In this document: in pieces, positions 939 to 19,882 of the stretch | How positions within the stretch are numbered: position 1 is the first letter of the stretch | Layout of the letters: each line of letters begins with the position of its first letter | Source: a virus | Direction: 5' to 3' (one strand) | UHGV virus genome: UHGV-0342044 | Length of the DNA: 19,882 bases | Notes under the pieces: model-generated | Databases searched by the model: none | Seen by the model: only the letters and a program-made list of their open reading frames with translations | What the model was told of the DNA's origin: nothing | Position numbers and translations under genes: made by a program

Positions 939-949
939 AATTAATTTAC

Positions 950-3485: not shown

Positions 3486-3488
3486 TTT

Positions 3489-4399: not shown

Positions 4400-4402
4400 C
4401 AG

Positions 4403-4810: not shown

Positions 4811-4884
4811 GCTAGTTTTTGCATTTTTATCGGCCACCATCATCTTTGCATCTTATTGATTATTAATGGTTATTTGTTTTTTGT

Positions 4885-4951: not shown

Positions 4952-4973
4952 TTTAAAGCTCTCCGGAGGAAAT

Positions 4974-5465
4974 ATGGATCATGAGTTGAAAAACCTGGTG
5001 CTGAATATTAATCAACTGGCGGCTTTATCTGGTCTGCACCGCCAGACTGTCGTGGCAAGACTGAAAAACATTCGTCCCGCTGGTGGACATGACAAACTCA
5101 AGCTATACCGGTTGACCGATATTCTGACTGAATTTATGGGGTTACCACCGCCGGTTGCTGAGGGCGAAATGGATCCACATGAACGCAAAGCCTGGTATCA
5201 GTCTGAACGTGAGCGTCTTAAGTTCGAACAGGAAACGGCACAACTCATTCCGGCCAGTGATGTCAGACGGGAGTTTGCCATCTGGGCAAAAGCGGTCGTG
5301 CAGGTGCTGGAGACATTACCGGATATTCTGGAACGTGACTGCGGCCTGCAGCCTGCCGCTGTGAGCCGTGTTCAGTCCATTATTGATGATCTGCGCGATC
5401 AGATAGCCCTGCGGGTGACCGAAGCAGGTGCGGATGATGAGGAGGAATTACAGCAGGAGGAGTAA
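4974..5465 (+). CDS. terminase small subunit (Nu1-like, N-terminal HTH)
   Basis: GGAGGA Shine-Dalgarno at 4965-4970. 163-aa product has an N-terminal HTH-like segment (LNINQLAALSGLHRQTVVARLKN) and an acidic C-terminus. Stop overlaps the large terminase start (TAATG), and it lies immediately downstream of cos. Confidence 0.75.
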   Translation: MDHELKNLVLNINQLAALSGLHRQTVVARLKNIRPAGGHDKLKLYRLTDILTEFMGLPPPVAEGEMDPHERKAWYQSERERLKFEQETAQLIPASDVRREFAIWAKAVVQVLETLPDILERDCGLQPAAVSRVQSIIDDLRDQIALRVTEAGADDEEELQQEE

Positions 5466-7567
5466 TGCTGAATCAGGAAACCGCAAAGGCAGCACGAACC
5501 GATTCAGGTTATATCCTTCGCGCACCGAGACGAATGCTGGTTGCTGATGCCGTTGCTCAGTATATGCGGGTGCCCATGGGGGCCGGGAACTCAGTCCCGT
5601 GGGATCCGCTGGTGGCACCGTATGTTATTGAGCCGATGAACTGCCTGGCCTCGCGTGAATACGACGCAGTGATATTTGTTGGCCCGGCACGAACTGGCAA
5701 GACTATCGGCCTGATTGACGGCTGGGTGATTTACAACGTGATTTGCGATCCTGCGGATATGTTGATCATTCAGATGACGGAGGAAAAAGCCCGCGAACAC
5801 TCCAAAAAACGACTTGCCAGAACGTTTCGCGTCAGCCCGGAAGTGGTCAGTCGCCTGAGTCCGAACAAAAATGACAACAACGTTTATGACAGAACATTCC
5901 TTGCTGGCAACTACCTGAAAATCGGCTGGCCGTCAGTCAATATCATGTCCTCATCAGATTATAAATGCGTGGCGCTGACGGATTATGACCGTTTTCCGGA
6001 AGATATTGATGGCGAGGGGGATGCCTTCTCTCTTGCCTCAAAACGTACCACCACATTTATGTCCAGTGGTATGACGCTGGTGGAGAGTTCCCCCGGCAGG
6101 GATGTGAAGGATGTGAAATGGCGACGGACTTCACCGCATGAGGCTCCACCAACCACGGGGATACTGTCGCTCTATAACCGTGGCGATCGCCGTCGCTGGT
6201 ACTGGCCCTGTCCACACTGTGGTGAGTATTTTCAGCCCTGCGGCGATGTGGTTGCTGGTTTCCGTGATATTGCCGATCCCGTGCTGGCAAGTGAGGCGGC
6301 TTATATTCAGTGTCCTTCCTGTTCAGGACGGATTATGCCTGAACAAAAACGTGAGCTGAACGGACGTGGGGTCTGGTTGCGGGATGGTGAATCCATCAAT
6401 GCGGATGGCAGTCGTTATGGTGATCCCCGACGCTCACGTATTGCGTCATTCTGGATGGAGGGTCCGGCAGCTGCTTACCAGACACTCTCGCAACTCGTTT
6501 ACAAACTGCTTACTGCAGAACAGGAATACGAGACAACCGGAAGTGAAGAAACACTCAAGACGGTTATCAATACCGACTGGGGATTACCTTATCTTCCCCG
6601 TGCCAGCATGGAGCAACGAAAAAGTGAACTGCTTGAACAGCGGGCAGAGCCAGTTCCTTCCCGCAGTGTGCCGGATGGCGTTAATTTCCTGGTGGCGACA
6701 GTTGATGTGCAGGCGGGACGTCATCGCCGTTTTGTGGTTCAGGTAACGGGCTATGGCAGCCGTGGCGAACGCTGGATTATTGATCGTTACAACATCACGC
6801 AGTCATTGCGCGGTGACAGCGACGGGGAGAGCCAGCGAATTGATCCGGCCAGCTATCCGGAAGACTGGGATGTCCTGCTGACGGATGTTTTTCATAAAAG
6901 CTGGCCGCTGGCCTCCGATCCTTCTCAACAAATGCGACTGATGGCAATGGCGGTGGACTCCGGCGGTGAAGACGGGGTCACTGATAATGCCTATAAATTC
7001 TGGCGTCGTTGCCGTCGTGATGGCCTTGGTAAACGTATTTACCTGTTTAAGGGCGACAGCATCCGGCGCGCAAAACTGATCACCCGTACATTCCCTGATA
7101 ACACCGGACGAACGGGCCGACGGGCGCAGGCCGCAGGTGATGTGCCGCTCTGGCTTCTTCAGACGGATGCCCTGAAAGACCGGGTGAATAACGCGTTATG
7201 GCGTGACTCTCCAGGTCCCGGCTATGTGCATTTCCCTGACTGGCTGGGGAGCTGGTTTTACGACGAACTGACGTATGAAGAGCGGAGTAGTGACGGGAAA
7301 TGGAGTAAGCCGGGTCGCGGTGCCAACGAAGCTTTTGACCTGATGGTGTATGCCGAGGCTCTGGTCATTCTGCATGGATACGAAAAGATCCGCTGGCCGG
7401 ATGCACCGGAGTGGGCGAGCCGGGAAACCTGGCTGGAGTGTGTCCCGGACAGTACCGAACCGTCACCCTCACCGGAACCGGTATCCACGCCTGTTAAAAA
7501 ACAAAAACGGAAGAAAACAGTAACTGACGATGTTAACCCCTGGCTGACTTCCGGAGGATGGTTATGA
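5465..7567 (+). CDS. terminase large subunit (GpA family)
   Basis: 700-aa product with Walker A motif (VGPARTGKT) and the CPHCGE zinc-ribbon-like motif (WYWPCPHCGEYF) also present in lambda gpA. Translationally coupled to the small subunit. Confidence 0.9.
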   Translation: MLNQETAKAARTDSGYILRAPRRMLVADAVAQYMRVPMGAGNSVPWDPLVAPYVIEPMNCLASREYDAVIFVGPARTGKTIGLIDGWVIYNVICDPADMLIIQMTEEKAREHSKKRLARTFRVSPEVVSRLSPNKNDNNVYDRTFLAGNYLKIGWPSVNIMSSSDYKCVALTDYDRFPEDIDGEGDAFSLASKRTTTFMSSGMTLVESSPGRDVKDVKWRRTSPHEAPPTTGILSLYNRGDRRRWYWPCPHCGEYFQPCGDVVAGFRDIADPVLASEAAYIQCPSCSGRIMPEQKRELNGRGVWLRDGESINADGSRYGDPRRSRIASFWMEGPAAAYQTLSQLVYKLLTAEQEYETTGSEETLKTVINTDWGLPYLPRASMEQRKSELLEQRAEPVPSRSVPDGVNFLVATVDVQAGRHRRFVVQVTGYGSRGERWIIDRYNITQSLRGDSDGESQRIDPASYPEDWDVLLTDVFHKSWPLASDPSQQMRLMAMAVDSGGEDGVTDNAYKFWRRCRRDGLGKRIYLFKGDSIRRAKLITRTFPDNTGRTGRRAQAAGDVPLWLLQTDALKDRVNNALWRDSPGPGYVHFPDWLGSWFYDELTYEERSSDGKWSKPGRGANEAFDLMVYAEALVILHGYEKIRWPDAPEWASRETWLECVPDSTEPSPSPEPVSTPVKKQKRKKTVTDDVNPWLTSGGWL

Positions 7568-7776
7568 ACCAGAATGATATCGAAGCCATGATTCAGCGTT
7601 ATACGGAAGCTGAAATGGCGGTGCTGGACGGAAAATCCGTCACCTTTAATGGTCAGCAGATGACCATGGAAAACTTATCTGAGATCCGGCAGGGACGGCA
7701 GGAGTGGGAGCGCCGCCTTGCGGCTCTGATTACACGACGACGGGGGCATCCCGGGTACCGGCTGGCGAGGTTCTGA
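7564..7776 (+). CDS. head-tail joining protein (gpW-like)
   Basis: About 70-aa ORF between terminase and portal. ATG at 7564 overlaps the terminase stop (ATGA); GGAGG at 7553-7557. C-terminal RRRGHPGY resembles the lambda W C-terminus. Confidence 0.55.
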   Translation: MNQNDIEAMIQRYTEAEMAVLDGKSVTFNGQQMTMENLSEIRQGRQEWERRLAALITRRRGHPGYRLARF

Positions 7777-9284
7777 TGGCAATTCTTGATGATGTGATTG
7801 GCGTTTTTTCACCAGGATGGAAAGCGGCAAGGCTGCGTTCCCGTGCGGTGATCCAGGCTTATGAGGCCGTAAAAACGACGCGGACACATAAAGCCCGGCG
7901 GGAAAACCGAACTGCCGACCAGTTAAGCCAGTACGGGGCCGTGTCGTTACGTGAGCAGGCCCGTTACCTTGATAACAACCACGATCTGGTCATTGGTGTA
8001 TTTGACAAGCTGGAAGAACGGGTGGTGGGGAAAAACGGGATTATTGTCGAGCCACATCCGGTATTACGCAATGGGGCCATTGCCCGTGATCTGGCAGCGG
8101 AGATACGCACCCGATGGAGTGAATGGTCTGTCAGTCCGGAAGTCACCGGGCAGTTTACCCGTCCGATGCTGGAACGTCTGATGCTGCGTACCTGGCTGCG
8201 CGATGGTGAGGTGTTTGCCCAGATGGTTTCCGGGCGCATAAACAGCCTGACGCCTTCTGCCGGTGTTCATTTCTGGCTGGAGGCGCTCGAGCCGGACTTT
8301 ATTCCCATGACCAGTGATGAGAGCAACAGGCTGAATCAGGGCGTGTTTGTTGATGACTGGGGGCGTCCCGAAAAATATCTGGTGTATAAAAGCCGTCCCG
8401 TATCCGGGCGGCAGATGGAAACCAAAGAAGTGGATGCAGAGCGAATGCTGCATCTTAAATTTGTTCGCCGTCTGCACCAGATGCGCGGGACGTCTTTGTT
8501 GTCCGGTGTGCTGATCCGCCTCAGTGCCCTGAAAGAGTATGAAGATTCTGAGCTGACTGCAGCAAGGATCGCCGCTGCTCTGGGGATGTACATCCGCAAA
8601 GGCGACGGACAGAGCTATGAAACGGATGGTAATGACAGCAAGGAGAATGAACGCGAGCTTACCATTCAGCCAGGCATTATTTACGACGATCTGAAACCCG
8701 GCGAAGAAATCGGAATGGTGAAGTCGGATCGCCCCAATCCTAATCTTGAAACTTTTCGTAATGGTCAGTTGCGTGCCGTGGCGGCGGGTAGTCGTCTGAG
8801 TTTTTCCAGTACAGCGCGCAACTATAACGGCACTTACAGCGCCCAGCGTCAGGAGCTGGTTGAATCCACTGATGGCTACCTGATCCTGCAGGACTGGTTT
8901 ATTGGTGCCGTCACCCGCCCGATGTATCGTGCCTGGCTGAAACAGGCTGTGGCATCCGGTGTTATCAGGCTACCCCGCGATCTTGATCGTTCTTCACTGT
9001 ATACCGCGGTGTATTCCGGACCGGTGATGCCGTGGATTGACCCTGTTAAGGAGGCTGAGGCCTGGAAAATTCAGATTCGTGGTGGAGCGGCGACAGAATC
9101 AGACTGGGTACGTGCAGGTGGTCGTAATCCGGATGATGTCAAACGTCGGCGCAAGGCAGAAATTGATGAAAACCGCAAGCTGGATCTGGTATTTGATACC
9201 GATCCTGCCAGTGATAAAGGAGGCAGCAGTGCCGCAACGAAACGACAGGAGCCGCAGCACACCGACGACCAGTCCGAAGAATAA
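7776..9284 (+). CDS. portal protein
   Basis: About 500-aa ORF immediately after the W-like gene. ATG at 7776 overlaps the W stop (TGATG). Position and size are typical of a portal; the ORF track's upstream extension from 7704 overlaps W. Confidence 0.85.
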   Translation: MAILDDVIGVFSPGWKAARLRSRAVIQAYEAVKTTRTHKARRENRTADQLSQYGAVSLREQARYLDNNHDLVIGVFDKLEERVVGKNGIIVEPHPVLRNGAIARDLAAEIRTRWSEWSVSPEVTGQFTRPMLERLMLRTWLRDGEVFAQMVSGRINSLTPSAGVHFWLEALEPDFIPMTSDESNRLNQGVFVDDWGRPEKYLVYKSRPVSGRQMETKEVDAERMLHLKFVRRLHQMRGTSLLSGVLIRLSALKEYEDSELTAARIAAALGMYIRKGDGQSYETDGNDSKENERELTIQPGIIYDDLKPGEEIGMVKSDRPNPNLETFRNGQLRAVAAGSRLSFSSTARNYNGTYSAQRQELVESTDGYLILQDWFIGAVTRPMYRAWLKQAVASGVIRLPRDLDRSSLYTAVYSGPVMPWIDPVKEAEAWKIQIRGGAATESDWVRAGGRNPDDVKRRRKAEIDENRKLDLVFDTDPASDKGGSSAATKRQEPQHTDDQSEE

Positions 9285-9297
9285 TTCCTGGTTCAGG

Positions 9298-11256
9298 ATG
9301 CAGGCTGGTCACCAGAGTGACGCGGATATTTATATTTATGACGAGATTGGTTTCTGGGGTGTTACAGCGAAGCAGTTTATCAGTGATCTGAATGCACTGG
9401 GCGATATCACCCACATTAATCTCCATATCAATTCACCGGGTGGCGATGTCTTTGAAGGCATCGCCATTTTTAATGCGCTGAAAACACATGGTGCGTCCAT
9501 TACCGTTTATGTCGACGGTGTGGCGGCGTCAATGGCGTCGGTCATTGCGATGGTGGGAAACCCGGTCATTATGCCGGAAAACACCTTCATGATGATTCAT
9601 AAACCATTTGGCTTTACGGGCGGTGATGCGGAGGACATGCGCACCTATGCTGACCTGCTCGATAAGGTTGAGGCGGTTCTGTTACCCGCTTATGCACAGA
9701 AAACCGGGAAAACCACCGATGAAATTGCTGCCATGCTGGCGGATGAGACCTGGATGTCTGGTGCCGAATGTCTGGCACATGGATTTGCTGATCAGGTGAC
9801 GCCAGCCGTTAAGGCAATGGCATGTATTCAGTCAAAACGTACAGAGGAATTTAAAAAGATGCCGGAATCCATTCGAAACATGATTACTCCGCCACGCAAC
9901 AGTGCTCCACGCGTACAGGATGATGAACCAGCAGCCTCCCGGACGCCAGTGCAGGCAGCAGCACCCGTGGTGGATGAAAACAGTATCCGTGCGCAGGTAC
10001 TGGCAGAGCAAAAAGCGCGTGTAAACGGTATTAATGATCTGTTTGCCATGTTTGGCGGGCGTTATCAGACGCTGCAGGCTCAGTGTCTTGCCGATCCTGA
10101 ATGTTCGCTGGAGCAGGCCCGCGAAAAGCTGTTGAACGAGATGGGGCGCGAGTCCACGCCATCCAATAAAAATACCCCGGCTCATATTTATGCCGGTAAC
10201 GGTAATTTTGTGGGGGACGGGATCCGCCAGGCGCTGATGGCGCGTGCCGGATTTGAAAAAACCGAACGTGATAATGTCTACAACGGGATGACCCTGCGTG
10301 AATATGCCCGTATGTCACTGACTGAACGGGGTATTGGGGTTTCCAGTTATAACCCGATGCAGATGGTCGGTGCGGTGTTCACACACAGTACGTCTGACTT
10401 CGGTAATATTCTGCTGGATGTTGCGAACAAAGCCATTCTGCAGGGCTGGGAAGATGCTCCTGAAACCTATGAACAGTGGACGCGGAAAGGTCAGTTGTCT
10501 GATTTTAAAATTGCCCATCGTGTGGGTATGGGGGGCTTCAGTGCTCTGCGTCAGGTGCGTGAAGGGGCGGAATATAAATACGTCACCACCGGAGATAAAC
10601 AGGCCACTATTGCACTGGCGACCTATGGCGAGCTGTTCAGTATCACCCGTCAGGCCATTATCAATGATGATCTGAATATGCTGACCGATGTCCCGATGAA
10701 ACTGGGCCGTGCGGCGAAATCCACTATTGCCGATCTGGTTTATGCCATTCTGACGTCTAACCCGAAAATCTCCACAGATAATGTAAGTCTGTTCGATAAA
10801 GCGAAACATGCAAACGTACTGGAGAGCGCTGCAATGGACGTGGCATCGCTGGATAAAGCCCGCCAGTTGATGCGCGTTCAGAAAGAGGGGGAGCGTCATC
10901 TGAATATTCGTCCTGCGTTCGTACTGGTACCGACGGCGATGGAGTCTGTTGCTAACCAGGTCATTCGCTCCTCAAGTGTCAAGGGGGCTGACATTAACGC
11001 CGGTATTATTAACCCGGTGAAAGATTTTGCGACCGTTATTGCAGAGCCTCGTCTTGATGATAACAGCCAGACCACCTTCTACCTGGCTGCGTCAAAAGGC
11101 TCCGATACAATTGAAGTGGCTTATCTCAACGGTGTGGATACGCCATATATTGATCAGATGGAGGGCTTCAGTGTGGATGGCGTGACAACGAAAGTGCGTA
11201 TTGACGCCGGTGTCGCGCCAGTTGATCACCGCGGTCTGGTGAAATGTACGGCGTAA
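9298..11256 (+). CDS. fused prohead protease (ClpP/S49-like) - scaffold - major capsid protein
   Basis: N-terminal ClpP-like protease domain (IYIYDEIGFWG...INSPGGDVFEGIAIFNAL...ASMASVIAMVG), a central Ala/Gln-rich scaffold-like linker, and a C-terminal capsid-like domain. Start placed at the first ATG after the portal stop. The open frame extends back to 9037 inside the portal gene, so the start is uncertain. Confidence 0.75.
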   Translation: MQAGHQSDADIYIYDEIGFWGVTAKQFISDLNALGDITHINLHINSPGGDVFEGIAIFNALKTHGASITVYVDGVAASMASVIAMVGNPVIMPENTFMMIHKPFGFTGGDAEDMRTYADLLDKVEAVLLPAYAQKTGKTTDEIAAMLADETWMSGAECLAHGFADQVTPAVKAMACIQSKRTEEFKKMPESIRNMITPPRNSAPRVQDDEPAASRTPVQAAAPVVDENSIRAQVLAEQKARVNGINDLFAMFGGRYQTLQAQCLADPECSLEQAREKLLNEMGRESTPSNKNTPAHIYAGNGNFVGDGIRQALMARAGFEKTERDNVYNGMTLREYARMSLTERGIGVSSYNPMQMVGAVFTHSTSDFGNILLDVANKAILQGWEDAPETYEQWTRKGQLSDFKIAHRVGMGGFSALRQVREGAEYKYVTTGDKQATIALATYGELFSITRQAIINDDLNMLTDVPMKLGRAAKSTIADLVYAILTSNPKISTDNVSLFDKAKHANVLESAAMDVASLDKARQLMRVQKEGERHLNIRPAFVLVPTAMESVANQVIRSSSVKGADINAGIINPVKDFATVIAEPRLDDNSQTTFYLAASKGSDTIEVAYLNGVDTPYIDQMEGFSVDGVTTKVRIDAGVAPVDHRGLVKCTA

Positions 11257-11280
11257 ACGTCGCAGACAACAACTCTGATG

Positions 11281-11299
11281 GCCCGTAAGGGCTTTTTTT
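11281..11299 (+). terminator. putative rho-independent terminator after the capsid gene
   Basis: GCCC-GTAA-GGGC hairpin (11281-11292) followed by TTTTTTT (11293-11299), 25 nt downstream of the capsid gene stop. Confidence 0.5.
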
Positions 11300-11342
11300 G
11301 TACCTGAAATCAGCCCCTGAACGGGGCTGTGCGGAGACAGTT

Positions 11343-11666
11343 ATGGCAAAGAATTTTGTAGAAGAAGGAAAAACGGTGGCGATTGTTGCCAGTGCAGCCA
11401 TCAGCAGCGGAGATCTGGTGCAGGTGGGTGATGTTTTTGCGGTGGCGCTGACCGATATTCCACAGGGTGAAACAGGCGACGGCATGACCGAAGGTGTGTT
11501 TATGCTGCCTAAGCTGAAAACGGATGACATGAAAACGGGTAAGAAGGTTTATCTGAAGTCCGGAAAAGTTCAGCTGACTAACAGCGGCTCTGATCCGCTG
11601 GTCGGGGTTGTCTGGGCAGATGCCGGAACCAGTGCAGAAGAAGTGCCGGTAAAACTCAATGTCTGA
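11343..11666 (+). CDS. head decoration/accessory protein (DUF2190-like)
   Basis: ATG at 11343 preceded by GGAGACAG. About 107-aa Gly/Val-rich product (MAKNFVEEGKTVAIVAS...) in the position that decoration proteins occupy after the major capsid gene. Family assignment is from memory. Confidence 0.5.
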   Translation: MAKNFVEEGKTVAIVASAAISSGDLVQVGDVFAVALTDIPQGETGDGMTEGVFMLPKLKTDDMKTGKKVYLKSGKVQLTNSGSDPLVGVVWADAGTSAEEVPVKLNV

Positions 11667-11934
11667 TCCCTTTTCCCGGCTGGCAGCGCGTATGGATGCG
11701 ATCACGGTCAGAAAGATGGGAAAGACAGCCTCGATTAATGATGTCGATATGACTGTGATCCCGGGAGAAACACTGGCAGAGCTGAATGCTCTGTCCGGAC
11801 CTGCGGTCTCTCTGGTGGTGTTTTCTTCGGGATACCGCCCACGGCGCGGGGATTGCGTTGTTTATGACGGACAACAATGGACGGTCACACGGCATGAACG
11901 CTTTAACGGTAAGCCAATGATCTTTATTGAGTAA
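11659..11934 (+). CDS. head-tail adaptor/joining protein (FII-like)
   Basis: 91-aa ORF between head and tail genes; C-terminal RRGDCVVYDGQQWTV resembles the lambda FII C-terminal region from memory. Confidence 0.5.
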   Translation: MSDPFSRLAARMDAITVRKMGKTASINDVDMTVIPGETLAELNALSGPAVSLVVFSSGYRPRRGDCVVYDGQQWTVTRHERFNGKPMIFIE

Positions 11935-11945
11935 AGAGGTATGGG

Positions 11946-12536
11946 ATGAAGGGGCTTGAGAATGCCATCCGCAATCTGAACAGCCTTGATACCCGTATGG
12001 TGCCACAGGCCAGCGCATGGGCGATAAACCGTGTGGCACAGAAAGCGGTCTCGGTTGCCACCCGGCAGGTTGCCGGGAATACCGTTGCGGGAGATAACCA
12101 GGTGAAAGGGATCCCCCTGAAACTGGTACGTCAGCGTGTCCGGGTGTTTAAAGCCAGTCCGTCAGGAAAAATGACGGCCAGGATCCGCGTTAACCGGGGC
12201 AATCTGCCCGCCATCAAACTGAACACAACACGGCGGCGTGCTGGTGAAGGACTGAGAGTGGGAAAATACTTTTTCCGGGGGGCATTTGTTCAGCAACTGG
12301 CGAATGGCCGCTGGCATGTTCTGAGGCGTCTTCCTGAAGCGCGTTTTGCAACAGGGCATGACCATCAGGGCAGGCCAAGAAAAAATCGTCTTCCTGTGGA
12401 GGTAGTGAAAATCCCGCTGTCCGGACCGCTGACACAGGCATTTGAAGATGCCCGCGACCGCATCATTGCTGCGGAAATGCCGAAACAGCTGGGGTATGCA
12501 CTGAAACAACAACTGAGGTTATGGCTGACCCGATGA
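11946..12536 (+). CDS. Z: tail completion protein Z
   Basis: 196-aa product MKGLENAIRNL...AFVQQLANGRWHVLRRL...VVKIPLSGPLTQAF...LGYALKQQLRLWLTR matches the lambda gpZ pattern from memory. It is located just before U. Confidence 0.8.
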   Translation: MKGLENAIRNLNSLDTRMVPQASAWAINRVAQKAVSVATRQVAGNTVAGDNQVKGIPLKLVRQRVRVFKASPSGKMTARIRVNRGNLPAIKLNTTRRRAGEGLRVGKYFFRGAFVQQLANGRWHVLRRLPEARFATGHDHQGRPRKNRLPVEVVKIPLSGPLTQAFEDARDRIIAAEMPKQLGYALKQQLRLWLTR

Positions 12537-12934
12537 ACCGACATACACAAATCCGCCAGGCCGTACTGGCACGCCTTCGGGAACAGTGTGGAGACAGCGC
12601 CACGTTTTTTGACGGGCTTCCGGCATTTATTGATGCGCAGGAACTGCCTGCCGTGGCGGTGTGGCTGAGTGATGCTCAGTACACCGGAAAAATGACGGAT
12701 GAAGATGACTGGCAGGCTGTTCTGCATATTGCCGTCTTCATCCGGGCACAGGCACCGGATTCAGAGCTGGATATGTGGATGGAGAGCACCATTTTCCCTG
12801 CCCTGAATGATATACCGGCACTTTCCGGACTCATCGACACCCTGATCCCACTCGGTTTTAACTATCAACGTGATAATGAGATGGCCACCTGGGCGATGGC
12901 GGAAATCACGTACCAGATCACGTACACGAATTAA
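12533..12934 (+). CDS. U: tail terminator protein U
   Basis: ATG at 12533 overlaps the Z stop (ATGA). Product contains ATFFDG, FPAVAVWL, AQYTG, PDSELDMWMES and DIPALS, closely matching lambda gpU from memory. Confidence 0.85.
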   Translation: MNRHTQIRQAVLARLREQCGDSATFFDGLPAFIDAQELPAVAVWLSDAQYTGKMTDEDDWQAVLHIAVFIRAQAPDSELDMWMESTIFPALNDIPALSGLIDTLIPLGFNYQRDNEMATWAMAEITYQITYTN

Positions 12935-12944
12935 GGAGGTGGTA

Positions 12945-13688
12945 ATGACCACACCAAATCCACTGGCAAAGACGAAAGGTGCGGGGACGACGTTCTGGAT
13001 GTATACCGGCAACGGCGACGCATTTGCGAACCCTTTGTCGGACACTGACTGGCTGCGTCTTGCGATGGTGAAGGATCTGCAACCTGGCGAAATGACCGCT
13101 GATGCAGAAGATGATACTTATCTCGATGATGAAGATGCAGACTGGAAAACGACAACCCAGGGGCAGAAATCCGTTGGTGATACTTCGGCGACGCTGGCCT
13201 GGCGTCCAGGTGACAGCGGGCAGAAAAAACTGGTTCAGTTGTTCGACTCCGGTGAAGTCTGCGCGTTTCGTATCAAATATCCCAACGGTACTGTTGATGT
13301 TTTCCGTGGCTGGCTGAGTTCACTGGGTAAAACCATTGCCTCAAAAGACGTGATGACCCGCACTGTGAAAATCAGCGGTGTGGGGCGTCCGTATCTGGCA
13401 GAGGAAGGCACTGAAACAGTGAGCGTTACCGGGCTGACGGTGGCACCGGCATCTGCCAGTGTAAAAGTGGGAGCAACCACCACGCTGACCTTTACAGTAA
13501 AACCTGACGGAGCCAGTGACAAAGCGATCAGTGTGCATTCGTCAGATCCACAGACTGCCACGGTGACCCTGAACGGGCTTGTAGCCACGGTGAAAGGCGT
13601 GAAGCAGGGCAGTGTCAGCATTGTGGGCATGACCGCTGACGGGAATTTTGTGGCTGTGGCTGCGGTGACTGTCAGCGCCGCAGGTTAA
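12945..13688 (+). CDS. V: major tail protein V (with C-terminal Ig-like domain)
   Basis: AAGGAGG at 12933-12939 and ATG at 12945. Product MTTPNPLAKTKGAGTTFWMYTGNGDAFANPLSDTDW...YLDDEDADW...NGTVDVFRGW is lambda gpV-like. The ORF track's longer version from 12870 overlaps U. Confidence 0.9.
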   Translation: MTTPNPLAKTKGAGTTFWMYTGNGDAFANPLSDTDWLRLAMVKDLQPGEMTADAEDDTYLDDEDADWKTTTQGQKSVGDTSATLAWRPGDSGQKKLVQLFDSGEVCAFRIKYPNGTVDVFRGWLSSLGKTIASKDVMTRTVKISGVGRPYLAEEGTETVSVTGLTVAPASASVKVGATTTLTFTVKPDGASDKAISVHSSDPQTATVTLNGLVATVKGVKQGSVSIVGMTADGNFVAVAAVTVSAAG

Positions 13689-13708
13689 CAGGACGATACT
13701 CATCATTT

Positions 13709-13732
13709 GCCCCGGTTATCCGGGGCTTTTTT
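13709..13732 (+). terminator. rho-independent terminator/attenuator between V and G
   Basis: GCCCCGG (13709-13715) / CCGGGGC (13720-13726) stem with loop TTAT, followed by TTTTTT (13727-13732). Confidence 0.6.
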
Positions 13733-13745
13733 GCAGGTGGAGAAC

Positions 13746-14135
13746 ATGATGTTTCTGAAACAGGGCACGTTTAATTATGAAAAACAGTCCGTGGTGCTCA
13801 GTGAGCTGTCCGGGCTGCAGAGAATTGAATATCTGGCGTTTGTTCAGCAGCGAACGGCAAAGTTTGATGCCGGTGAGGGAGAACTGCCGGAGGCTGAACG
13901 ACAGATTGCTTTTCTGCGGATGGGGATGGATATCAATGCCTGGCTGGTTTCCCGCTCACTGTGGAATGCGGATCAGTCTAAGGATGTAGAGACGCTTTGC
14001 GCATCCGTTATTACAACATGGTCGTATGATGCCCTGGGTGCGGGGGCGGAGATGGTTCTGTCGCTGAGCGGTATGGGGGCCATTGATAATGCCGGGGATG
14101 ATGAGCATGAGGCGCTGACGCCGGAAAAGTCCTGA
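13746..14135 (+). CDS. G: tail assembly chaperone G
   Basis: GGTGGAGAA Shine-Dalgarno then ATGATG at 13746/13749. Product MMFLKQGTF...LSELSGLQRIEYLAF resembles the lambda gpG N-terminus (MFLK...LSELSALQRIEHLA). Ends at TGA 14133-14135. Confidence 0.8.
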   Translation: MMFLKQGTFNYEKQSVVLSELSGLQRIEYLAFVQQRTAKFDAGEGELPEAERQIAFLRMGMDINAWLVSRSLWNADQSKDVETLCASVITTWSYDALGAGAEMVLSLSGMGAIDNAGDDEHEALTPEKS

Positions 14136-14473
14136 CGCGGGAAATGCAGTTTGTCATGCGGCTTGCCCGGGAGTTCCGGCGGGCAGACTGGCGGCGGATG
14201 CTGTCGGAAATGTCGGCCACTGAGCTTGGTGAGTGGGGCGATTATTTCCGGATGCAGAGCTTCAGTGATGTGTGGATGGATGCGCAGTTTGCCTCGCTGA
14301 AGGCATTGATCGTGAGAATGGTGTCCGGCAGCAGTGATGCTGCGGTGGCTGATTTCAGCCTTTTACCGGAAGAGAACGGGATACCGGAGCGAACGGACGA
14401 AGAACTGATGCATCTTGGGGAAGGTATTTCCGGAGGTGTGCGTTATGGACCAGATAGCCAACCTGGTCATTGA
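13746..14473 (+). CDS. GT: tail assembly chaperone G-T, predicted product of programmed -1 ribosomal frameshift
   Basis: The -1 frame is open from 14111 through 14473 and overlaps the 3' end of G. Candidate slip site is GGAAAAG at 14123-14129, where lambda has GGGAAAG. The T-frame product (…RRMLSEMSATELGEW…) resembles lambda T. The exact junction was not determined. Confidence 0.6.
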
Positions 14474-17400
14474 TTTGGGGATTGATGCGGCAGAGTTTAA
14501 AAATGAAATCCCCCGTATCAAAAACCTTCTGAATGGTGCAGCCAGCGATGCAGAACGGTCTTCTGCCCGTATGCAGCGTTTTATGGAGCGTCAGACTCAG
14601 GCCGCCCGGCAGACAACGCAGGCGGCGTCTTCGGCTGCAACAGCCGCATCCGTCCATGCGCAGACGGTGGAGAAGAACGCACAGGCTCATGAACGCATGG
14701 CCCGCGAGGTGGAGAAAACCCGCCAGCGCATGGAGGCGCTGAGCCAGAAAATGCGCGAGGAACAGGCGCAGGCCATGGCTCTGGCGGAGGCTCAGGATAA
14801 AGCGGCTGCTGCGTTTTATCGTCAGATTGACAGTGTGAAACAGGCCAGTGCGGGTCTGCAGGAATTACAGCGTATTCAGCAGCAGATCCGACAGGCCAGA
14901 AACAGTGGCGGGATTGGTCAGCAGGATTATCTGGCGCTGATTTCTGAGGTTACGGCGAAAACCCGTGTTCTTACACAGGCTGAGGAAGAGGCTACCCGAC
15001 AGAAAGTGGCGTTTATCCGTCAGCTTAAAGAGCAGGCAACCCGCCAGAATCTTTCTTCTTCTGAGTTGCTTCGTGCTAAGGCTGCCCAGCTGGGGGTAAG
15101 CAGTGCTGCAGAAGTGTATATCCGCAAAATGGAGCAGGCAGGAAAAGCCACGCATTCGCTGGGGCTGAAAAGTGCAGCGGCCCGTCAGGAGATAGGCGTT
15201 CTGATAGGTGAACTGGCCCGCGGAAATTTAGGTGCGCTGAGGGGATCCGGAATAACGCTGGCTAACCGTGCCGGGTGGATAGACACATTGATGTCACCGA
15301 AAGGCATGATGCTTGGCGGGGTTATTGGCGGTATTGCCGCGGCTGTCTATGGTCTGGGTAAAGCCTGGTATGACGGTCAGAAGGAGGGGGAAGAATTTAA
15401 CCGCCAGCTGTCGCTGACGGGGCATTATGCCGGAGTCACTGCCGGGCAGCTGTGGACGCTCAGTCGTGCTATTTCCGGGAATGGTATCACGCAACATGCT
15501 GCAGCCGGTGCGCTGGCTCAGGTGGTGGGGAGTGGTGCATTTCGTGGAAACGATATCGGTATGGTGGCGAGAGCTGCCGCACAGATGGAGCGATCGGTTG
15601 GCCAGTCGGTCAGCGATACCATAAATCAGTTTAAGCGGCTGAAGGATGATCCTGTAAATGCCGCGAAGTCTCTGGACAATGAGCTGCATTTTCTTACTGC
15701 CACTCAGCTTGAGCAGATACGCGTCCTTGGAGAGCAGGGGCGGTCCAGTGATGCGGCACGGATAGCCATGTCTGCACTGGCAGAGGAAACCGGTCGGCGT
15801 ACTGCGGATATTGATAATAACCTCAATGCGCTGGGCAGTACGCTGCAAACTTTGTCTGACTGGTGGAAGCAGTTCTGGGATGCGGCCATGAATATTGGTC
15901 GTGAAGATTCGCTGGATGCGCAGATTGCCACTTTGCAGGAGAAAGTGTCGCGGGCGAAAAGACTCCCCTGGACGGCATCATCTTCTCAGGTTGAATACGA
16001 TCAGCAGCGTCTTAACGATCTTCAGGAGAAAAAACGCCAGAAGGATTTGCAGGATGCAAAAGAGCAGGCAGAGCGGAATTATCAGGAGCAACAGAAACGC
16101 CGTAATGCTGAAAATGCTGCACTGAACCGGATGAATGAAACGGAAGCTGCACGACATCAGCGTGAAATTGCGCGTATTAATGCCATGCAGTACGCCGATC
16201 AGGCTGTCAGGGATGCGGCGATACAACGTGAAAATGAACGTTACGAGAAAGCCCTGGCATCCGGTAAGAAAAAAACACGCGAAACCCGTAATGATGAGGC
16301 CACCCGGTTATTGCTGCAGTACAGTCAGCAACAGGCACAGGTGGAAGGACAGATTGCTGCTGCAAGACAGTCAGCAGGCATTGCCACTGACAGGATGACA
16401 GAAGCGCATAAACAGCTTCTGGCTCTGCAGCAGCGCATCAGCGATCTGGACGGGAAAAAACTGACGGCAGATGAAAAGAGTGTGCTGGCCCGTAAAGATG
16501 AACTGATTCAGGCACTGACGCTGCTGGATGTAAAACAGCAGGAGCTTCAGAAACAGACGGCACTCAACGATCTGAAGAAAAAAACAATTCAGCTGACCAG
16601 TCAACTGGCTGAAGAAGAGCGCGCTCAGCGTCAGCAACATGACCTGGATATCGCCACGGTTGGTATGGGTGATCAGCAGCGGCAGCGATATCAGGTACAA
16701 CTGAGTCTTCGCCAGAAATACCAGCAACAGCTGGAGCAGTTGAGGCGGGATAGTGAGCAGAAAGGGACATATAACACGGATGACTACAGAAAGGCCGAGC
16801 AGGCGCTGACGGAGAGCCTGAACCGACAACTGAATGAGAATCGCCGTTACTGGCAACAGCTTGAAATTGCTCAGGGTAATTGGAAAAACGGAGTCCTGCG
16901 TGCACTCCAGAATGTCACTGAGAATGCGGATAACACAGCCGGGACAGTGGAACAGTTGTTCACGTCTGCGTTCAGTAGCATGAGTGACTGGCTGGCGACA
17001 TTCTGTACTACAGGCAAACTCAATTTCAAATCTTTTACTTCTTCTGTGCTGTCAGATATGTCCAGAATCATGGCTCAGATAGCTTTAATGAAAGCGGTAA
17101 AAGGCATTGCTTCCGCGCTGCCTTTTGATTTTGTAGCCAATGCTGATGGCGGTGTTTATCAGTCGGCTGATTTGAGTCGCTACAGTGGCACGGTGGTTAA
17201 CCGTCCGACGTTTTTTGCTTTTGCAAAAGGCGCGGGTGTGATGGGGGAAGCTGGACCTGAAGCCATTCTGCCACTGCGTCGTGGTGCTGACGGTAAGCTG
17301 GGGGTTGTGGCGGATATTGGTGGTTCAGGTATGGCGATGTTTGCCCCGCAGTACAATATCGAGATCAATAACGATGGCACGAACGGGCAGATAGGCCCGG

Positions 17401-17501
17401 CTGCCCTGAAGGTGGTTTATGACCTTGGGAAAAAAGCGGCAGCGGACTTTATGCAACAGCAGGCCCGTGATGGTGGTCGGTTAAGTGGAGCATATCGGTA
17501 A
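14445..17501 (+). CDS. H: tail tape measure protein H
   Basis: About 1018-aa coiled-coil-rich protein; GGAGGTG at 14433-14439 and ATG at 14445. N-terminus (ANLVIDLGIDAAEF) and C-terminus (NNDGTNGQIGPAALKVVYD...RDGG) match lambda gpH motifs from memory. Confidence 0.9.
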   Translation: MDQIANLVIDLGIDAAEFKNEIPRIKNLLNGAASDAERSSARMQRFMERQTQAARQTTQAASSAATAASVHAQTVEKNAQAHERMAREVEKTRQRMEALSQKMREEQAQAMALAEAQDKAAAAFYRQIDSVKQASAGLQELQRIQQQIRQARNSGGIGQQDYLALISEVTAKTRVLTQAEEEATRQKVAFIRQLKEQATRQNLSSSELLRAKAAQLGVSSAAEVYIRKMEQAGKATHSLGLKSAAARQEIGVLIGELARGNLGALRGSGITLANRAGWIDTLMSPKGMMLGGVIGGIAAAVYGLGKAWYDGQKEGEEFNRQLSLTGHYAGVTAGQLWTLSRAISGNGITQHAAAGALAQVVGSGAFRGNDIGMVARAAAQMERSVGQSVSDTINQFKRLKDDPVNAAKSLDNELHFLTATQLEQIRVLGEQGRSSDAARIAMSALAEETGRRTADIDNNLNALGSTLQTLSDWWKQFWDAAMNIGREDSLDAQIATLQEKVSRAKRLPWTASSSQVEYDQQRLNDLQEKKRQKDLQDAKEQAERNYQEQQKRRNAENAALNRMNETEAARHQREIARINAMQYADQAVRDAAIQRENERYEKALASGKKKTRETRNDEATRLLLQYSQQQAQVEGQIAAARQSAGIATDRMTEAHKQLLALQQRISDLDGKKLTADEKSVLARKDELIQALTLLDVKQQELQKQTALNDLKKKTIQLTSQLAEEERAQRQQHDLDIATVGMGDQQRQRYQVQLSLRQKYQQQLEQLRRDSEQKGTYNTDDYRKAEQALTESLNRQLNENRRYWQQLEIAQGNWKNGVLRALQNVTENADNTAGTVEQLFTSAFSSMSDWLATFCTTGKLNFKSFTSSVLSDMSRIMAQIALMKAVKGIASALPFDFVANADGGVYQSADLSRYSGTVVNRPTFFAFAKGAGVMGEAGPEAILPLRRGADGKLGVVADIGGSGMAMFAPQYNIEINNDGTNGQIGPAALKVVYDLGKKAAADFMQQQARDGGRLSGAYR

Positions 17502-17830
17502 TGGAGACGTTTCACTGGAAAGTGCGCCCGGATATGAATGTGGTATCAGAGCCGAAAGTGGTGACAGTGAAGCTGGGCGATGGTTATGAACAGCGTCGTG
17601 CAGCGGGACTGAATAACCAGTTGTCGACTTACAGCGTGACGATACGTGTTCGTAAATGTGAACACCCATCTTTAAAAGCCTTTCTGGAACGGCACGGTGG
17701 CGTCCGCGCATTTCAGTGGACGCCACCTTATGACTGGAAGCCGATCAGGGTGGTTTGTCGTAAATGGTCGGCAAGCGTGGGGGCATTGTGGGTAACCATA
17801 ACGGCAGATTTTGAACAGGTCGTGGCATAG
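17501..17830 (+). CDS. M: minor tail protein M
   Basis: METFHWKVRPDMNV...GDGYEQR...LSTYSV...FLERHGG...WTPPYDW...ADFEQVV is lambda gpM-like. Start overlaps the H stop (TAATG). Confidence 0.9.
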   Translation: METFHWKVRPDMNVVSEPKVVTVKLGDGYEQRRAAGLNNQLSTYSVTIRVRKCEHPSLKAFLERHGGVRAFQWTPPYDWKPIRVVCRKWSASVGALWVTITADFEQVVA

Positions 17831-17839
17831 GAGGCTCTG

Positions 17840-18538
17840 ATGCAGGATATTCCACAGGAAACACATCATGAGACGACACGCCTCACTCAGTCAGCCCAGG
17901 TGGTGCTCTGGGAAATCGATCTGACAGAGGTCGGTGGTGAACGTTATTTTTTCTGTAATGAGCAGAACGAAAAAGGTGAGCCGGTTACCTGGCAGGGGCG
18001 GCAGTATCAGGCATACCCCATTCAGGGGACGGGATTTGAACTGAACGGCAAGGGCAGTGCTGCCCGTCCGACACTGACGGTTTCTAACCTGCACGGAATG
18101 GTCACCGGGATGGCGGAAGACTTGCAGAGTCTGGTCGGCGGAACGGTGGTCAGGCGTAAGGTTTACGCCCGTTTTCTGGATGCGGTGAACTTCGTCAACG
18201 GAAACAGTGACGCCGATCCGGAGCAGGAGGTGATCAGCCGCTGGCGCATCGAGCAGTGCAGTGAACTGAGCGCGGTCAGTGCCTCTTTTGTACTGTCCAC
18301 GCCGACGGAAACGGACGGTGCTGTTTTTCCGGGGCGCATCATGCTGGCTAATACCTGCACCTGGACCTATCGCGGTGATGAGTGCGGTTATCACGGTCCG
18401 GCTGTCGCTGATGAATATGACCAGCCGACGTCCGATATCACGAAGGATAAATGCAGCAAATGCCTGAGTGGTTGTAAGTTTCGCAATAACGTCGGCAACT
18501 TTGGCGGCTTCCTTTCCATTAACAAACTTTCGCAGTAA
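17840..18538 (+). CDS. L: minor tail protein L
   Basis: 232-aa product near-identical from memory to lambda gpL (VVLWEIDLTEVGGERYFFCNEQNEKGEPVTWQGRQYQ...CSKCLSGCKFRNNVGNFGGFLSINKLSQ). Confidence 0.95.
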   Translation: MQDIPQETHHETTRLTQSAQVVLWEIDLTEVGGERYFFCNEQNEKGEPVTWQGRQYQAYPIQGTGFELNGKGSAARPTLTVSNLHGMVTGMAEDLQSLVGGTVVRRKVYARFLDAVNFVNGNSDADPEQEVISRWRIEQCSELSAVSASFVLSTPTETDGAVFPGRIMLANTCTWTYRGDECGYHGPAVADEYDQPTSDITKDKCSKCLSGCKFRNNVGNFGGFLSINKLSQ

Positions 18539-18542
18539 TCCC

Positions 18543-19286
18543 ATGACACAGACAGAATCAGCGATTCTGGCGCACGCCCGGCGATGTGCGCCAGCGGAGT
18601 CGTGCGGCTTCGTGGTGAGAACGCCGGAGGGGGAAAGATATTTTCCCTGCGTGAATATCTCCGGTGAGCCGGAGGCGTATTTCCGGATGTCGCCGGAGGA
18701 CTGGCTGCGGGCAGAGATGCAGGGTGAGATTGTGGCGCTGGTCCACAGCCACCCCGGTGGTCTGCCCTGGCTGAGTGAGGCTGACAGGCGGCTGCAGGTG
18801 CAGAGCGATTTGCCTTGGTGGCTGGTCTGCCGGGGTGAGATTCATAAATTCCGCTGTGTGCCGCATCTTACCGGGCGGCGCTTTGAGCACGGGGTGACGG
18901 ACTGTTACACGCTGTTCCGGGATGCTTACCATCTGGCGGGGATTGAGATGCCGGATTTTCATCGCGAGGATGACTGGTGGCGTAACGGTCAGAATCTCTA
19001 TCTGGATAATCTGGAGGCCACAGGGCTGTATCAGGTGCCGTTGTCATCAGCACAACCGGGCGATGTGCTGCTGTGCTGTTTTGGTTCATCGGTGCCGAAT
19101 CATGCCGCCATTTACTGTGGTGATGGCGAGCTGCTGCACCATATTCCTGAACAACTGAGCAAACGAGAGAGGTATACCGACAAATGGCAGCGACGCACAC
19201 ACTCCCTCTGGCGTCACCGGGCATGGCGCGCATCTGCCTTTACGGGGATTTGCAACGATTTGGCCGCCGCATCGACCTTCGTGTGA
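18543..19286 (+). CDS. K: tail assembly protein K (NlpC/P60 and JAB-like domains)
   Basis: ATG at 18543, 5 nt after the L stop. Product MTQTESAILAHARRCAPAESCGFVV...HSHPGG... is near-identical from memory to lambda gpK. The ORF track's version from 18468 overlaps L. Confidence 0.95.
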   Translation: MTQTESAILAHARRCAPAESCGFVVRTPEGERYFPCVNISGEPEAYFRMSPEDWLRAEMQGEIVALVHSHPGGLPWLSEADRRLQVQSDLPWWLVCRGEIHKFRCVPHLTGRRFEHGVTDCYTLFRDAYHLAGIEMPDFHREDDWWRNGQNLYLDNLEATGLYQVPLSSAQPGDVLLCCFGSSVPNHAAIYCGDGELLHHIPEQLSKRERYTDKWQRRTHSLWRHRAWRASAFTGICNDLAAASTFV

Positions 19287-19882
19287 AAACGGGGGCTGAA
19301 GCCATCCGCGCACTGGCCACACAGCTCCCGGTGTTTCGTCAGAAACTGAGCGACGGCTGGTATCAGGTACGGATTGCCGGGCGGGACGTCAGCACGTCCG
19401 GGTTAACGGCGCAGTTACATGAGACTCTGCCTGATGGCGCTGTGATTCATATTGTTCCCAGAGTCGCCGGGGCCAAGTCAGGTGGCGTATTCCAGGTTGT
19501 CCTGGGGGCTGCCGCCATTGCCGGATCATTCTTTACCGCCGGAGCCACCCTTGCAGCATGGGGGGCAGCCATTGGGGCCGGTGGTATGACCGGCATCCTG
19601 TTTTCTCTCGGTGCCAGTATGGTGCTCGGTGGTGTGGCGCAGATGCTGGCACCGAAAGCCAGAACTCCCCGTACACAGACAACGGATAACGGCAAACAGA
19701 ACACCTATTTCTCCTCACTGGATAACATGGTTGCCCAGGGCAATGTTCTGCCGGTTCTGTACGGTGAAATGCGCGTGGGGTCACGCGTGGTTTCTCAGGG
19801 CGCACCGGCGGTTTCCCAGTTATCCTGGGTCGTTCCTTTCATACAGGTATTGGTGTGCACTAATCTGCCTTCAGAATCATAG
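19184..19882 (+). CDS. I: tail assembly protein I
   Basis: MAATHTLPLASPGMARICLYGDLQRFGRRIDLRVKTGAEAIRALATQLP... is near-identical to lambda gpI over about 205 residues, with a divergent C-terminal tail. The 5' end overlaps K as in lambda. Stop TAG at 19880-19882 is the last codon in the window. Confidence 0.9.
   Translation: MAATHTLPLASPGMARICLYGDLQRFGRRIDLRVKTGAEAIRALATQLPVFRQKLSDGWYQVRIAGRDVSTSGLTAQLHETLPDGAVIHIVPRVAGAKSGGVFQVVLGAAAIAGSFFTAGATLAAWGAAIGAGGMTGILFSLGASMVLGGVAQMLAPKARTPRTQTTDNGKQNTYFSSLDNMVAQGNVLPVLYGEMRVGSRVVSQGAPAVSQLSWVVPFIQVLVCTNLPSES

What the first reader, a model, noticed from the sequence alone, without database searches (positions are those of the whole stretch)
17501..19882. 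Mosaic join: tail-tip assembly genes near-identical to lambda, while gene I diverges at its extreme 3' end
L, K and most of I translate to proteins almost identical to lambda's from memory, whereas terminase, portal and head are clearly different lineages. The last roughly 27 codons of I (…SRVVSQGAPAVSQLSWVVPFIQVLVCTNLPSES) do not match the lambda gpI C-terminus as I recall it. This suggests a recombination junction at the I to J boundary, which is where host-range determinants are swapped. The window ends exactly at the I stop, so the downstream partner is unseen.
Basis: partly seen in the sequence, partly recalled or inferred. Interest (0 to 1): 0.45.

Follow-up and report, generated by a model that had tools for sequence, protein, structure and literature searches.

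The report
Truncated prophage gene I meets Klebsiella DNA
The odd last 27 codons of tail gene I are not a variant phage ending: the E. coli-type lambda-like prophage DNA stops dead at base 19799, and the last 82 bases are a backwards piece of a Klebsiella chromosomal lipoprotein gene. This is an ordinary broken-prophage or chimeric-sequence end, not a host-range swap.

Summary
gpI residues 1-205 are 98.5% identical to lambda gpI. Lambda's last 18 residues are replaced by 27 unrelated ones, and the window ends on that ORF's stop codon. L is 93% and K 97.5% identical to lambda; M is 56%; terminase, portal and tape measure are at or below 25%.

The interpretation does not hold. Every phage hit and every E. 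coli prophage hit stops at window base 19799. Bases 19801-19882 match Klebsiella michiganensis DSM 25444 at 81 of 82 positions, as the antisense of codons 27-53 of a yhdV-family lipoprotein gene next to acrF and an rRNA operon. They are only about 84% identical to E. coli. The 27 "divergent codons" are therefore read-through into unrelated bacterial DNA. There is no J, no phage partner, no att site and no microhomology.

Bases 1-19799 are 97-99.7% identical to common Escherichia prophages. So this is a non-homologous breakpoint between an E. coli-type prophage and a Klebsiella chromosome. It is either a decayed prophage end, which I favour slightly, or an assembly or library chimera. The junction was found nowhere else.

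A real phage-phage mosaic boundary relative to lambda does exist, but at the M|L border near 17840-17900. Interest is low.

The parts
14445..17501 (+). Tape measure gene H (1018 aa), context only. This exact protein is labelled 'MULTISPECIES [Escherichia]'.
   Evidence: It is 25.5% identical to lambda H.
17501..17830 (+). Tail tip gene M (109 aa), of the mEp460/UTI89 type rather than the lambda type.
   Evidence: Pfam Phage_min_tail, E=1e-39. It is 55.6% identical to lambda M. The exact protein is very common, listed in 51,521 blocks of the collection.
17836..17900 (.). True phage-phage mosaic boundary relative to lambda, at the M|L border.
   Evidence: Identity to lambda jumps from 58-62% to 91-100% here. 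Many phage hits begin at query 336/337, which is window 17836/7.
17840..18538 (+). Tail tip gene L (232 aa).
   Evidence: Pfam Phage_tail_L, E=2e-99. It is 93.1% identical to lambda L.
18543..19286 (+). Tail tip gene K, an intact 247-aa form with JAB/MPN and NlpC/P60 domains.
   Evidence: Pfam Prok-JAB and NLPC_P60. The 199-aa part is 97.5% identical to lambda K.
19184..19799 (+). Gene I codons 1-205 plus the first base of codon 206. This is the last phage-derived DNA. I overlaps K by 103 nt, as in lambda.
   Evidence: It is 98.5% identical to lambda gpI 1-205. Pfam Lambda_tail_I matches residues 14-97. All phage and E. coli hits end at 19799.
19301..19700 (+). Central part of I, carrying the lambda/mEp460_4F5 allele. 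This is a second, internal mosaic patch.
   Evidence: It is 97-100% identical to lambda and mEp460_4F5, but only 46-85% identical to UTI89-type relatives that are otherwise nearly identical.
19799..19801 (.). Breakpoint. Phage homology ends at 19799 and host homology starts at 19801. Base 19800 (G) matches neither reference. There is no microhomology.
   Evidence: Phage relatives have A at this position and K. michiganensis DSM 25444 has T.
19801..19882 (-). Fragment of a yhdV-family lipoprotein gene: codons 27-53 plus 1 nt, encoding YDSEGRLVHTNTCMKGTTQDNWETAGA. It is of Klebsiella michiganensis type.
   Evidence: It is 81/82 identical to K. michiganensis DSM 25444 (L014 2615-2696), 93.8% to K. 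grimontii and about 84% to E. coli and Salmonella. The one mismatch, at 19804, is a synonymous GGT/GGC change.
19799..19882 (+). Read-through tail of the chimeric I ORF: 27 codons of antisense host DNA followed by TAG.
   Evidence: The same TAG is present in the intact Klebsiella gene.

Best explanation
The 3' end of I is a non-homologous breakpoint, not a phage allele.

What is shown:
- An E. coli-type lambdoid (mEp460/UTI89-like) prophage late region runs to base 19799, which is codon 205 of 223 of gene I.
- It is joined, blunt and without microhomology, to the middle of a Klebsiella michiganensis-type chromosomal yhdV lipoprotein gene in inverted orientation.
- The last 18 codons of I, all of J, lom, the side tail fibre genes, dinI and int are missing from the window.
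- The I reading frame simply runs on through 27 codons of antisense host DNA to a chance TAG.

What I infer:
- I take this as the right-hand end of a defective prophage remnant that lost its distal part by an illegitimate deletion or rearrangement.
- I also think the window was cut from a longer record at the end of the last called phage gene.
- The truncated gpI should be non-functional. In lambda, residues 167 to the C-terminus are beta-strands threaded through gpJ.
- Without J no infectious tail can be made.
For: - Phage hits (268 records with a match) and E. coli hits (5,361 genomes with a match) end at 19799. No 28-nt word of 19790-19882 occurs in 5,426 complete E. coli genomes.
- The last 82 nt match K. 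michiganensis DSM 25444 at 81/82, with the one difference synonymous in the yhdV frame.
- In that genome the gene lies between acrF and the distal 5S/tRNA-Thr/5S of an rRNA operon. The same synteny is seen in E. coli and Salmonella.
- All 23 relatives continue with AGATCAGCACGG after CAGG.
- Intact relatives carry I-J-lom-stf-...-dinI-int to the right.
- The window is 118 nt short of 20,000. It ends exactly on the stop of the chimeric ORF, while its start is in the middle of a gene (DUF968). That fits a cut from a longer record at a gene end, meaning the Klebsiella DNA continues. With no shared k-mer at the join, a de Bruijn mis-join is not expected.
- Other truncated or fused I fragments and broken tail modules are common in E. 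coli prophage remnants.
- The role of the gpI C-terminal region is described in PMC11101478.
Against: - Phage and host belong to different genera. Every part of 1-19799 is 97-99.7% identical to Escherichia prophages. The exact H protein is labelled Escherichia-only. Yet the flank is Klebsiella, which is a classic sign of a chimeric sequence.
- The junction is a singleton. It is absent from GTDB species representatives, IMG/VR and JGI metagenomes.
- The chimeric I (232, 219 and 199 aa) and the predicted truncated YhdV (54 aa) are absent from about 15 billion proteins.
- Only 82 nt of host DNA are visible.
- Relatives integrate at dusA or next to prfC, far from yhdV. A simple deletion from attR is therefore not expected unless this phage had a different integration module.
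Confidence: 0.55

Rival explanations
1. The join is an artefact, not an in-vivo junction. A sample containing both E. coli (with this common prophage) and a K. michiganensis-like strain gave a chimeric molecule, read or contig. This could be a ligation or long-read chimera, or a contig tip extended by a chimeric read. The 27 codons are then meaningless.
For: - The two sides come from different genera.
- The join is blunt, without microhomology, and has one base that matches neither side.
- The host part, at 82 nt, is shorter than a typical short read and sits at the very end of the sequence.
- The junction and its chimeric proteins occur nowhere else.
- Gut metagenome assemblies that carry these prophages are in the collections, for example the SHAO19 and YOKO23 scaffolds.
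- Short-read contigs of this prophage typically break inside the tail module.
Against: - If 19882 were a true contig end, its coincidence with the stop codon (a few percent at most) and with a length just under 20,000 would both be chance.
- A de Bruijn mis-join needs a shared k-mer, and there is none.
- A single chimeric read is normally pruned when true continuations exist.
- The only mismatch to the Klebsiella reference is a synonymous change. That looks like a natural allele rather than error-rich sequence.
Confidence: 0.35
2. The sequence is a lambda-dgal-type specialised transducing genome. Aberrant excision joined a point inside the late operon (gene I) to host DNA beyond the other prophage end, replacing distal tail genes with chromosome.
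For: A truncated late gene fused to host DNA without homology is the expected structure of such hybrids (established lambda genetics; inference only). The orientation is compatible.
Against: - Relatives of this phage integrate at dusA or next to prfC, not near yhdV/rrn.
- The host DNA is Klebsiella, while the phage is of Escherichia type.
- Nothing shows that the sequence was packaged.
- There are no other examples.
Confidence: 0.05
3. One reading: a phage-phage mosaic junction at the I/J boundary that brings in a different I end and J host-range module.
For: - Lambdoid phages are mosaic.
- This window has real mosaic joints at M|L and inside I.
- J alleles differ among close relatives, at 1132-1232 aa.
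Against: - The sequence after 19799 has no homologue in 50,697 phage records except three bacterial or host-contaminant entries.
- It matches a Klebsiella chromosomal gene in antisense at 81/82.
- The replaced tail has no gpI-like residues.
Confidence: 0.02

Closest known systems
Lambda tail-tip assembly module M-L-K-I (Lambdavirus lambda, NC_001416)
   Same: - The gene order is H-M-L-K-I with a 103-nt K/I overlap.
- The Pfam families are the same.
- L is 93%, K 97.5% and I(1-205) 98.5% identical to lambda.
   Different: - M is only 56% identical.
- I lacks its last 18 residues.
- No J follows.
- K is an intact 247-aa JAB+NlpC/P60 ORF, whereas the lambda reference is shifted by a 1-nt deletion and is annotated from an internal ATG.
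mEp460-like / UTI89- and RL465-type E. coli prophages (for example PhiR55_1 PV340571 and mEp460_4F5 LR595868)
   Same: - They are 97-98.7% identical over 1-19799, including Q, lysis, terminase, portal, the ClpP-capsid fusion and the tail genes.
- mEp460_4F5 matches M through I in one piece at 97.2%.
   Different: Those phages continue with the I 3' end, then J, lom, stf, dinI and int, and sit at dusA or next to prfC. The window instead breaks off into Klebsiella DNA.
Defective prophage remnants produced by illegitimate deletion (prophage decay)
   Same: - A structural gene is cut in mid-frame and fused to unrelated DNA.
- There is no att site or integrase at the end.
- Comparable broken I or M ends exist in E. 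coli records: P0074 is a Nu1-I fusion, L030 has M followed by inverted Mu-like genes, and L037 has no gene call for K or I after L.
   Different: Here the flanking chromosome belongs to another genus than the phage's usual host, and the junction is seen only once.
YhdV-family small lipoprotein gene (acrEF-yhdV-rrnD region of Enterobacteriaceae)
   Same: The 82 nt encode YDSEGRLVHTNTCMKGTTQDNWETAGA on the minus strand. This is identical to residues 27-53 of the K. michiganensis protein, which occurs in at least 1000 contigs.
   Different: Only the middle third of the gene is in the window. The part encoding the C-terminal Gly-rich segment is replaced by phage DNA, which would give a 54-aa product ending ...AGAP*.

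Membership tests
Lambda-type tail-tip module (M, L, K, I, J) | M, L, K and I proteins match their Pfam families in the order H-M-L-K-I. | tested here: met
   Phage_min_tail, Phage_tail_L, Prok-JAB+NLPC_P60 and Lambda_tail_I are all above their cut-offs. The order and the K/I overlap are as in lambda.
Lambda-type tail-tip module (M, L, K, I, J) | Full-length gpI with the conserved C-terminus (...SQEISTADEGDGGQVVVIGR). | tested here: not met
   Residues 206-223 are replaced by 27 unrelated residues. All 23 relatives keep the conserved end.
Lambda-type tail-tip module (M, L, K, I, J) | The J (central tail fibre) gene follows I after a spacer of about 60 nt. | tested here: not met
   No J or I-J spacer sequence follows 19799. 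The remaining 83 nt are non-phage.
Phage-phage mosaic (recombination) junction | Sequence on both sides of the breakpoint has homologues in other phages. | tested here: not met
   The distal side matches no genuine phage record in 50,697. It matches the K. michiganensis chromosome at 81/82.
Phage-phage mosaic (recombination) junction | The junction lies at a gene or module border and leaves the genes intact. | tested here: not met
   The break lies inside I, at codon 205/206 of 223, and inside host yhdV, after codon 53 of 73. By contrast, the M|L joint near 17840 meets this criterion.
Site-specific prophage end (attL/attR) | The end lies outside structural genes, next to an integrase and at a known target such as dusA, prfC or a tRNA. 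| tested here: not met
   The end lies inside tail gene I, and no int is in the window. Relatives have int 10 kb further right, at dusA or next to prfC. The host side is mid-yhdV, about 400 nt from tRNA-Thr and not in it.
Site-specific prophage end (attL/attR) | A direct repeat of the att core is present at the other prophage end. | not testable with these tools
   The other end of the element is outside the window, which starts in the middle of a gene (DUF968).
Specialised transducing hybrid (lambda dgal type) | The captured host DNA comes from next to the prophage attachment site, and the molecule is cos-bounded and of packageable size. | not testable with these tools
   The source record and the attachment site in this host are unknown. 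In E. coli relatives the att sites are far from yhdV.
YhdV-family lipoprotein gene | A complete ORF with a lipoprotein signal peptide and a C-terminal Gly-rich segment. | tested here: not met
   Only codons 27-53 are present. The 3' part is replaced by phage DNA and the 5' part lies beyond the window.

The most novel reading that the evidence does not exclude
The junction is real and lies in a Klebsiella michiganensis-like chromosome. Its late region is 97-99.7% identical to Escherichia prophages throughout, and its exact tape-measure protein is so far recorded only in Escherichia. A lambdoid prophage of that kind would then have entered Klebsiella very recently. It would have been fixed or truncated there by illegitimate rather than Int-mediated recombination, inside yhdV next to an rRNA operon. 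That would be a caught-in-the-act case of cross-genus phage DNA transfer.
Probability: 0.3. Interest if true: 0.3.

Novelty: already known. Interest (0 to 1): 0.1.

Why it matters
It matters mainly as a correction. An apparent "variant C-terminus" of a tail protein, at the spot where host-range modules are exchanged, turns out to be read-through across a phage/bacterium breakpoint.

Taken at face value, it would add a false gpI variant and a false recombination hotspot to catalogues. It would also assign an E. coli-type phage to a sequence whose flank is Klebsiella.

If the junction is real in vivo, it is a modest example of prophage decay, possibly after a recent cross-genus transfer. If it is an artefact, it flags the source record as chimeric or contaminated.

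Tried and rejected
- **Insertion sequence end or repeat.** Rejected. The 83 nt are single-copy in E. coli genomes (median 1 place per genome) and lie inside a conserved lipoprotein gene.
- **A yhdV-like moron carried by phages or plasmids.** Rejected. The best plasmid hits are about 84% identical. The only "phage" hits are a Salmonella WGS contig and two UNVERIFIED_ORG low-coverage host contigs.
- **E. coli as the flank.** Rejected. Identity is about 84%, against 98.8% for K. michiganensis.
- **Exact junction searches.** GTDB species representatives, IMG/VR and JGI metagenomes gave nothing. A host-allele pattern in the metagenomes also gave nothing.
- **Exact look-ups of the chimeric proteins.** The chimeric I with three start codons and the predicted truncated YhdV were not on record. 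A word-based search with the chimeric tail found only normal or otherwise broken I fragments.
- **Tracing the source through rare window proteins.**
  - The exact K (199 aa) occurs in four contigs of two metagenome samples, but their DNA is only about 96% identical, so they are not the source.
  - K (247 aa) is not on record.
- **Microhomology.** GGTTTCTCAG (phage, 19789-19798) resembles GGTTTCCCAG (host, 19810-19819), but it is offset by 21 nt and cannot have mediated this join. I treat it as chance.
- **Window trimmed at gene boundaries on both sides.** Rejected for the left end, which lies in the middle of a gene (DUF968).
- **Simple deletion from attR.** Not supported by the relatives' att sites, dusA or next to prfC. 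The nearest plausible target in the host is tRNA-Thr, about 400 nt away, but nothing shows it was used.
Full report
**Observation**

I compared the window with the lambda reference (NC_001416, fetched).
- gpI residues 1-205 are 98.5% identical, with 3 substitutions.
- Lambda's last 18 residues, EISTADEGDGGQVVVIGR, are replaced by 27 unrelated residues, GAPAVSQLSWVVPFIQVLVCTNLPSES.
- The TAG stop occupies the last three bases of the window.
- L is 93.1% identical, the 199-aa part of K 97.5% and M 55.6%.
- The tape measure is 25.5%, terminase A 24.6% and portal 21.5% identical. The ClpP-capsid fusion has no significant match to lambda E.

**Where similarity stops**

- A megablast of 17501-19882 against 50,697 phage records found 268 records with a match. 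The listed hits that reach the end of I stop at query base 2299, which is window 19799.
- The whole window against phages and against 5,426 complete E. coli genomes gave the same limit. The best records cover 1-19799 at 98-98.7% and none goes further.
- A query of 19790-19882 has no 28-nt word in any complete E. coli genome.
- A 100-nt identity profile shows 94-98% to all relatives in 19701-19800 and 39-43%, the random level, in 19801-19882.
The window continues G-CGCACCGGCGG.

**What the last 82 bases are**

- A sensitive blastn placed 19802-19881 at about 84% identity in one single-copy chromosomal gene of 5,349 E. coli genomes.
- That gene encodes a 73-aa membrane or lipoprotein between acrF and yhdW-Z/rrnD, in the position of yhdV. 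The same place is matched in Salmonella.
- The window's plus strand is antisense to this gene. Its minus strand reads YDSEGRLVHTNTCMKGTTQDNWETAGA.
- I scanned the 185,579 GTDB species genomes with a degenerate pattern for YDSEGRLVHTNTCMKG. This gave 17 loci.
- Ranked by nucleotide identity to the window end, Klebsiella michiganensis DSM 25444 is 81/82 (98.8%), K. grimontii 93.8% and all others 90% or less.
- The alignment shows host identity from 19801 to 19882. The single mismatch, at 19804, is a synonymous GGT/GGC change in the yhdV frame.
- In K. michiganensis the gene lies between acrF and the distal 5S-tRNA-Thr-5S of an rRNA operon.
- The intact protein is on record in at least 1000 contigs named K. 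michiganensis.
- Plasmid-borne and other homologues reach only about 84%. The two "phage" records that hit are UNVERIFIED_ORG low-coverage host contigs.

**Anatomy of the join**

- Phage homology ends at 19799, the first base of I codon 206.
- Base 19800 (G) matches neither the phage relatives (A) nor the Klebsiella reference (T). It could belong to a host allele with Leu instead of Ile54, as in Salmonella.
- Host homology begins at 19801, after yhdV codon 53.
- There is no shared sequence at the join.
- On the minus strand the truncated yhdV would end ...ETAGAP*.
- The 27 "divergent codons" of I are therefore read-through of antisense bacterial DNA. An open stretch of 27 codons has a chance of about 0.27. 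The TAG is also present in the intact Klebsiella gene.

**What the phage part is**

- Every part of 1-19799 has a 97-99.7% match in E. coli prophages.
- The closest are prophages of RL465, UTI89 and relatives, together with phages PhiR55_1 and mEp460 and its kin.
- The exact tape-measure protein is labelled "MULTISPECIES [Escherichia]".
- In intact relatives I is followed by J, lom, side tail fibre genes, dinI and int. The prophages sit at dusA or next to prfC.
- None of that is in the window.

**Function**

This part is inferred.
- Cryo-EM work on lambda describes gpI residues from about 167 to the C-terminus as beta-strands and loops threaded through gaps in gpJ. These stay ordered in both the closed and the open tail tip (PMC11101478).
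- A gpI that loses residues 206-223 and gains 27 random residues, in an element without J, should not support tail assembly.
- The segment is a dead end rather than a new host-range arrangement.

**Real junction or artefact?**

The identity of the two sides is secure. The origin of the join is not.

For a real in-vivo junction:
- The window is 118 nt short of 20,000 and ends exactly on the stop codon of the chimeric ORF, while its start is in the middle of a gene (DUF968).
- This is what a cut from a longer record at a gene end would give, so the Klebsiella DNA probably continues.
- With no shared k-mer, a graph mis-join is not expected.
- The only host mismatch looks like a natural synonymous allele.
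- Broken tail modules and I fusions are common in prophage remnants.

For an artefact:
- The two sides come from different genera.
- The join is blunt.
- Only 82 nt of host are visible, at the very end of the sequence.
- The junction is a singleton. It is absent from GTDB representatives, IMG/VR and JGI metagenomes.
- The chimeric I (three starts) and the predicted truncated YhdV are absent from about 15 billion proteins.
- Relatives integrate far from yhdV.

I put a truncated prophage end at about 0.55 and a chimera at about 0.35.

**Comparison with known systems**

- The M-L-K-I genes are a member of the lambda tail-tip module, but an incomplete one. The I C-terminus and J were tested and are not present.
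- The join fails the tests for a phage-phage mosaic junction. The distal side is not phage, and the break lies inside genes.
- It also fails the tests for an att end. It lies inside a structural gene, with no integrase and no known target.
- It resembles ordinary prophage decay.
- A lambda-dgal-type transducing hybrid is formally possible but unsupported.

**Real mosaicism nearby**

- Relative to lambda, identity jumps from about 60% to above 91% at the M|L border near 17836-17900. Many phage hits begin there.
- The central part of I (19301-19700) carries the lambda/mEp460_4F5 allele. Relatives that are otherwise nearly identical in H-M-L-K are only 46-85% identical there.
- These are standard lambdoid mosaic joints.

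**Verdict**

Novelty is "already known". Interest is low, at 0.1.

Noticed in passing
window 17836-17900: The real phage-phage mosaic boundary relative to lambda is at the M|L border. Identity to lambda jumps from 58-62% to 91-100%, and many phage hits start at exactly this point.
   Followed up: partly
window 19301-19700: The central part of I, which is Gly-rich and hydrophobic, is the lambda/mEp460_4F5 allele (97-100%). It is only 46-85% identical, with an 8-codon length difference, to UTI89-type prophages that are otherwise almost identical in H-M-L-K. This is an internal mosaic patch within gene I.
   Followed up: partly
window 18543-18700; L041 (lambda) 14133-14290: The window's K is an intact 247-aa JAB+NlpC/P60 ORF. 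The lambda reference lacks one G, at about window 18677, which puts the first 48 codons out of frame, so lambda K is annotated as 199 aa from an internal ATG. Some relatives with an intact frame are still called as 199 aa.
   Followed up: partly
L030 10330-20330; L037 about 10100-11600; proteins P0074 and P0136: Other broken versions of this tail module exist in E. coli records. In one, M is followed directly by inverted Mu-like tail genes. One locus has no gene call for K or I after L. One ORF, seen on 17 contigs, fuses the Nu1 N-terminus to the I C-terminus. Breaks in and around I are evidently common in prophage remnants.
   Followed up: no
window 1-482 and 19880-19882: The window starts in the middle of a DUF968 gene but ends exactly on a stop codon, and it is 118 nt short of 20,000. 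This suggests it was cut from a longer record at a gene end, so the Klebsiella flank probably continues beyond the window (inference).
   Followed up: partly
L042 39975-42508; L040 42896-44950: Close relatives of this prophage carry the integrase at the tail-fibre end. RL465 has int beside dusA. UTI89 has no int in the stretch shown and lies next to prfC. The integration module is thus itself exchangeable in this phage group.
   Followed up: no
L043 (OR845267.1) and L044 (OR851678.1): Two GenBank "phage" records that contain the yhdV region are UNVERIFIED_ORG low-coverage contigs (cov 11 and cov 2.7). They appear to be host DNA carried over in phage preparations and are not phage genes.
   Followed up: partly
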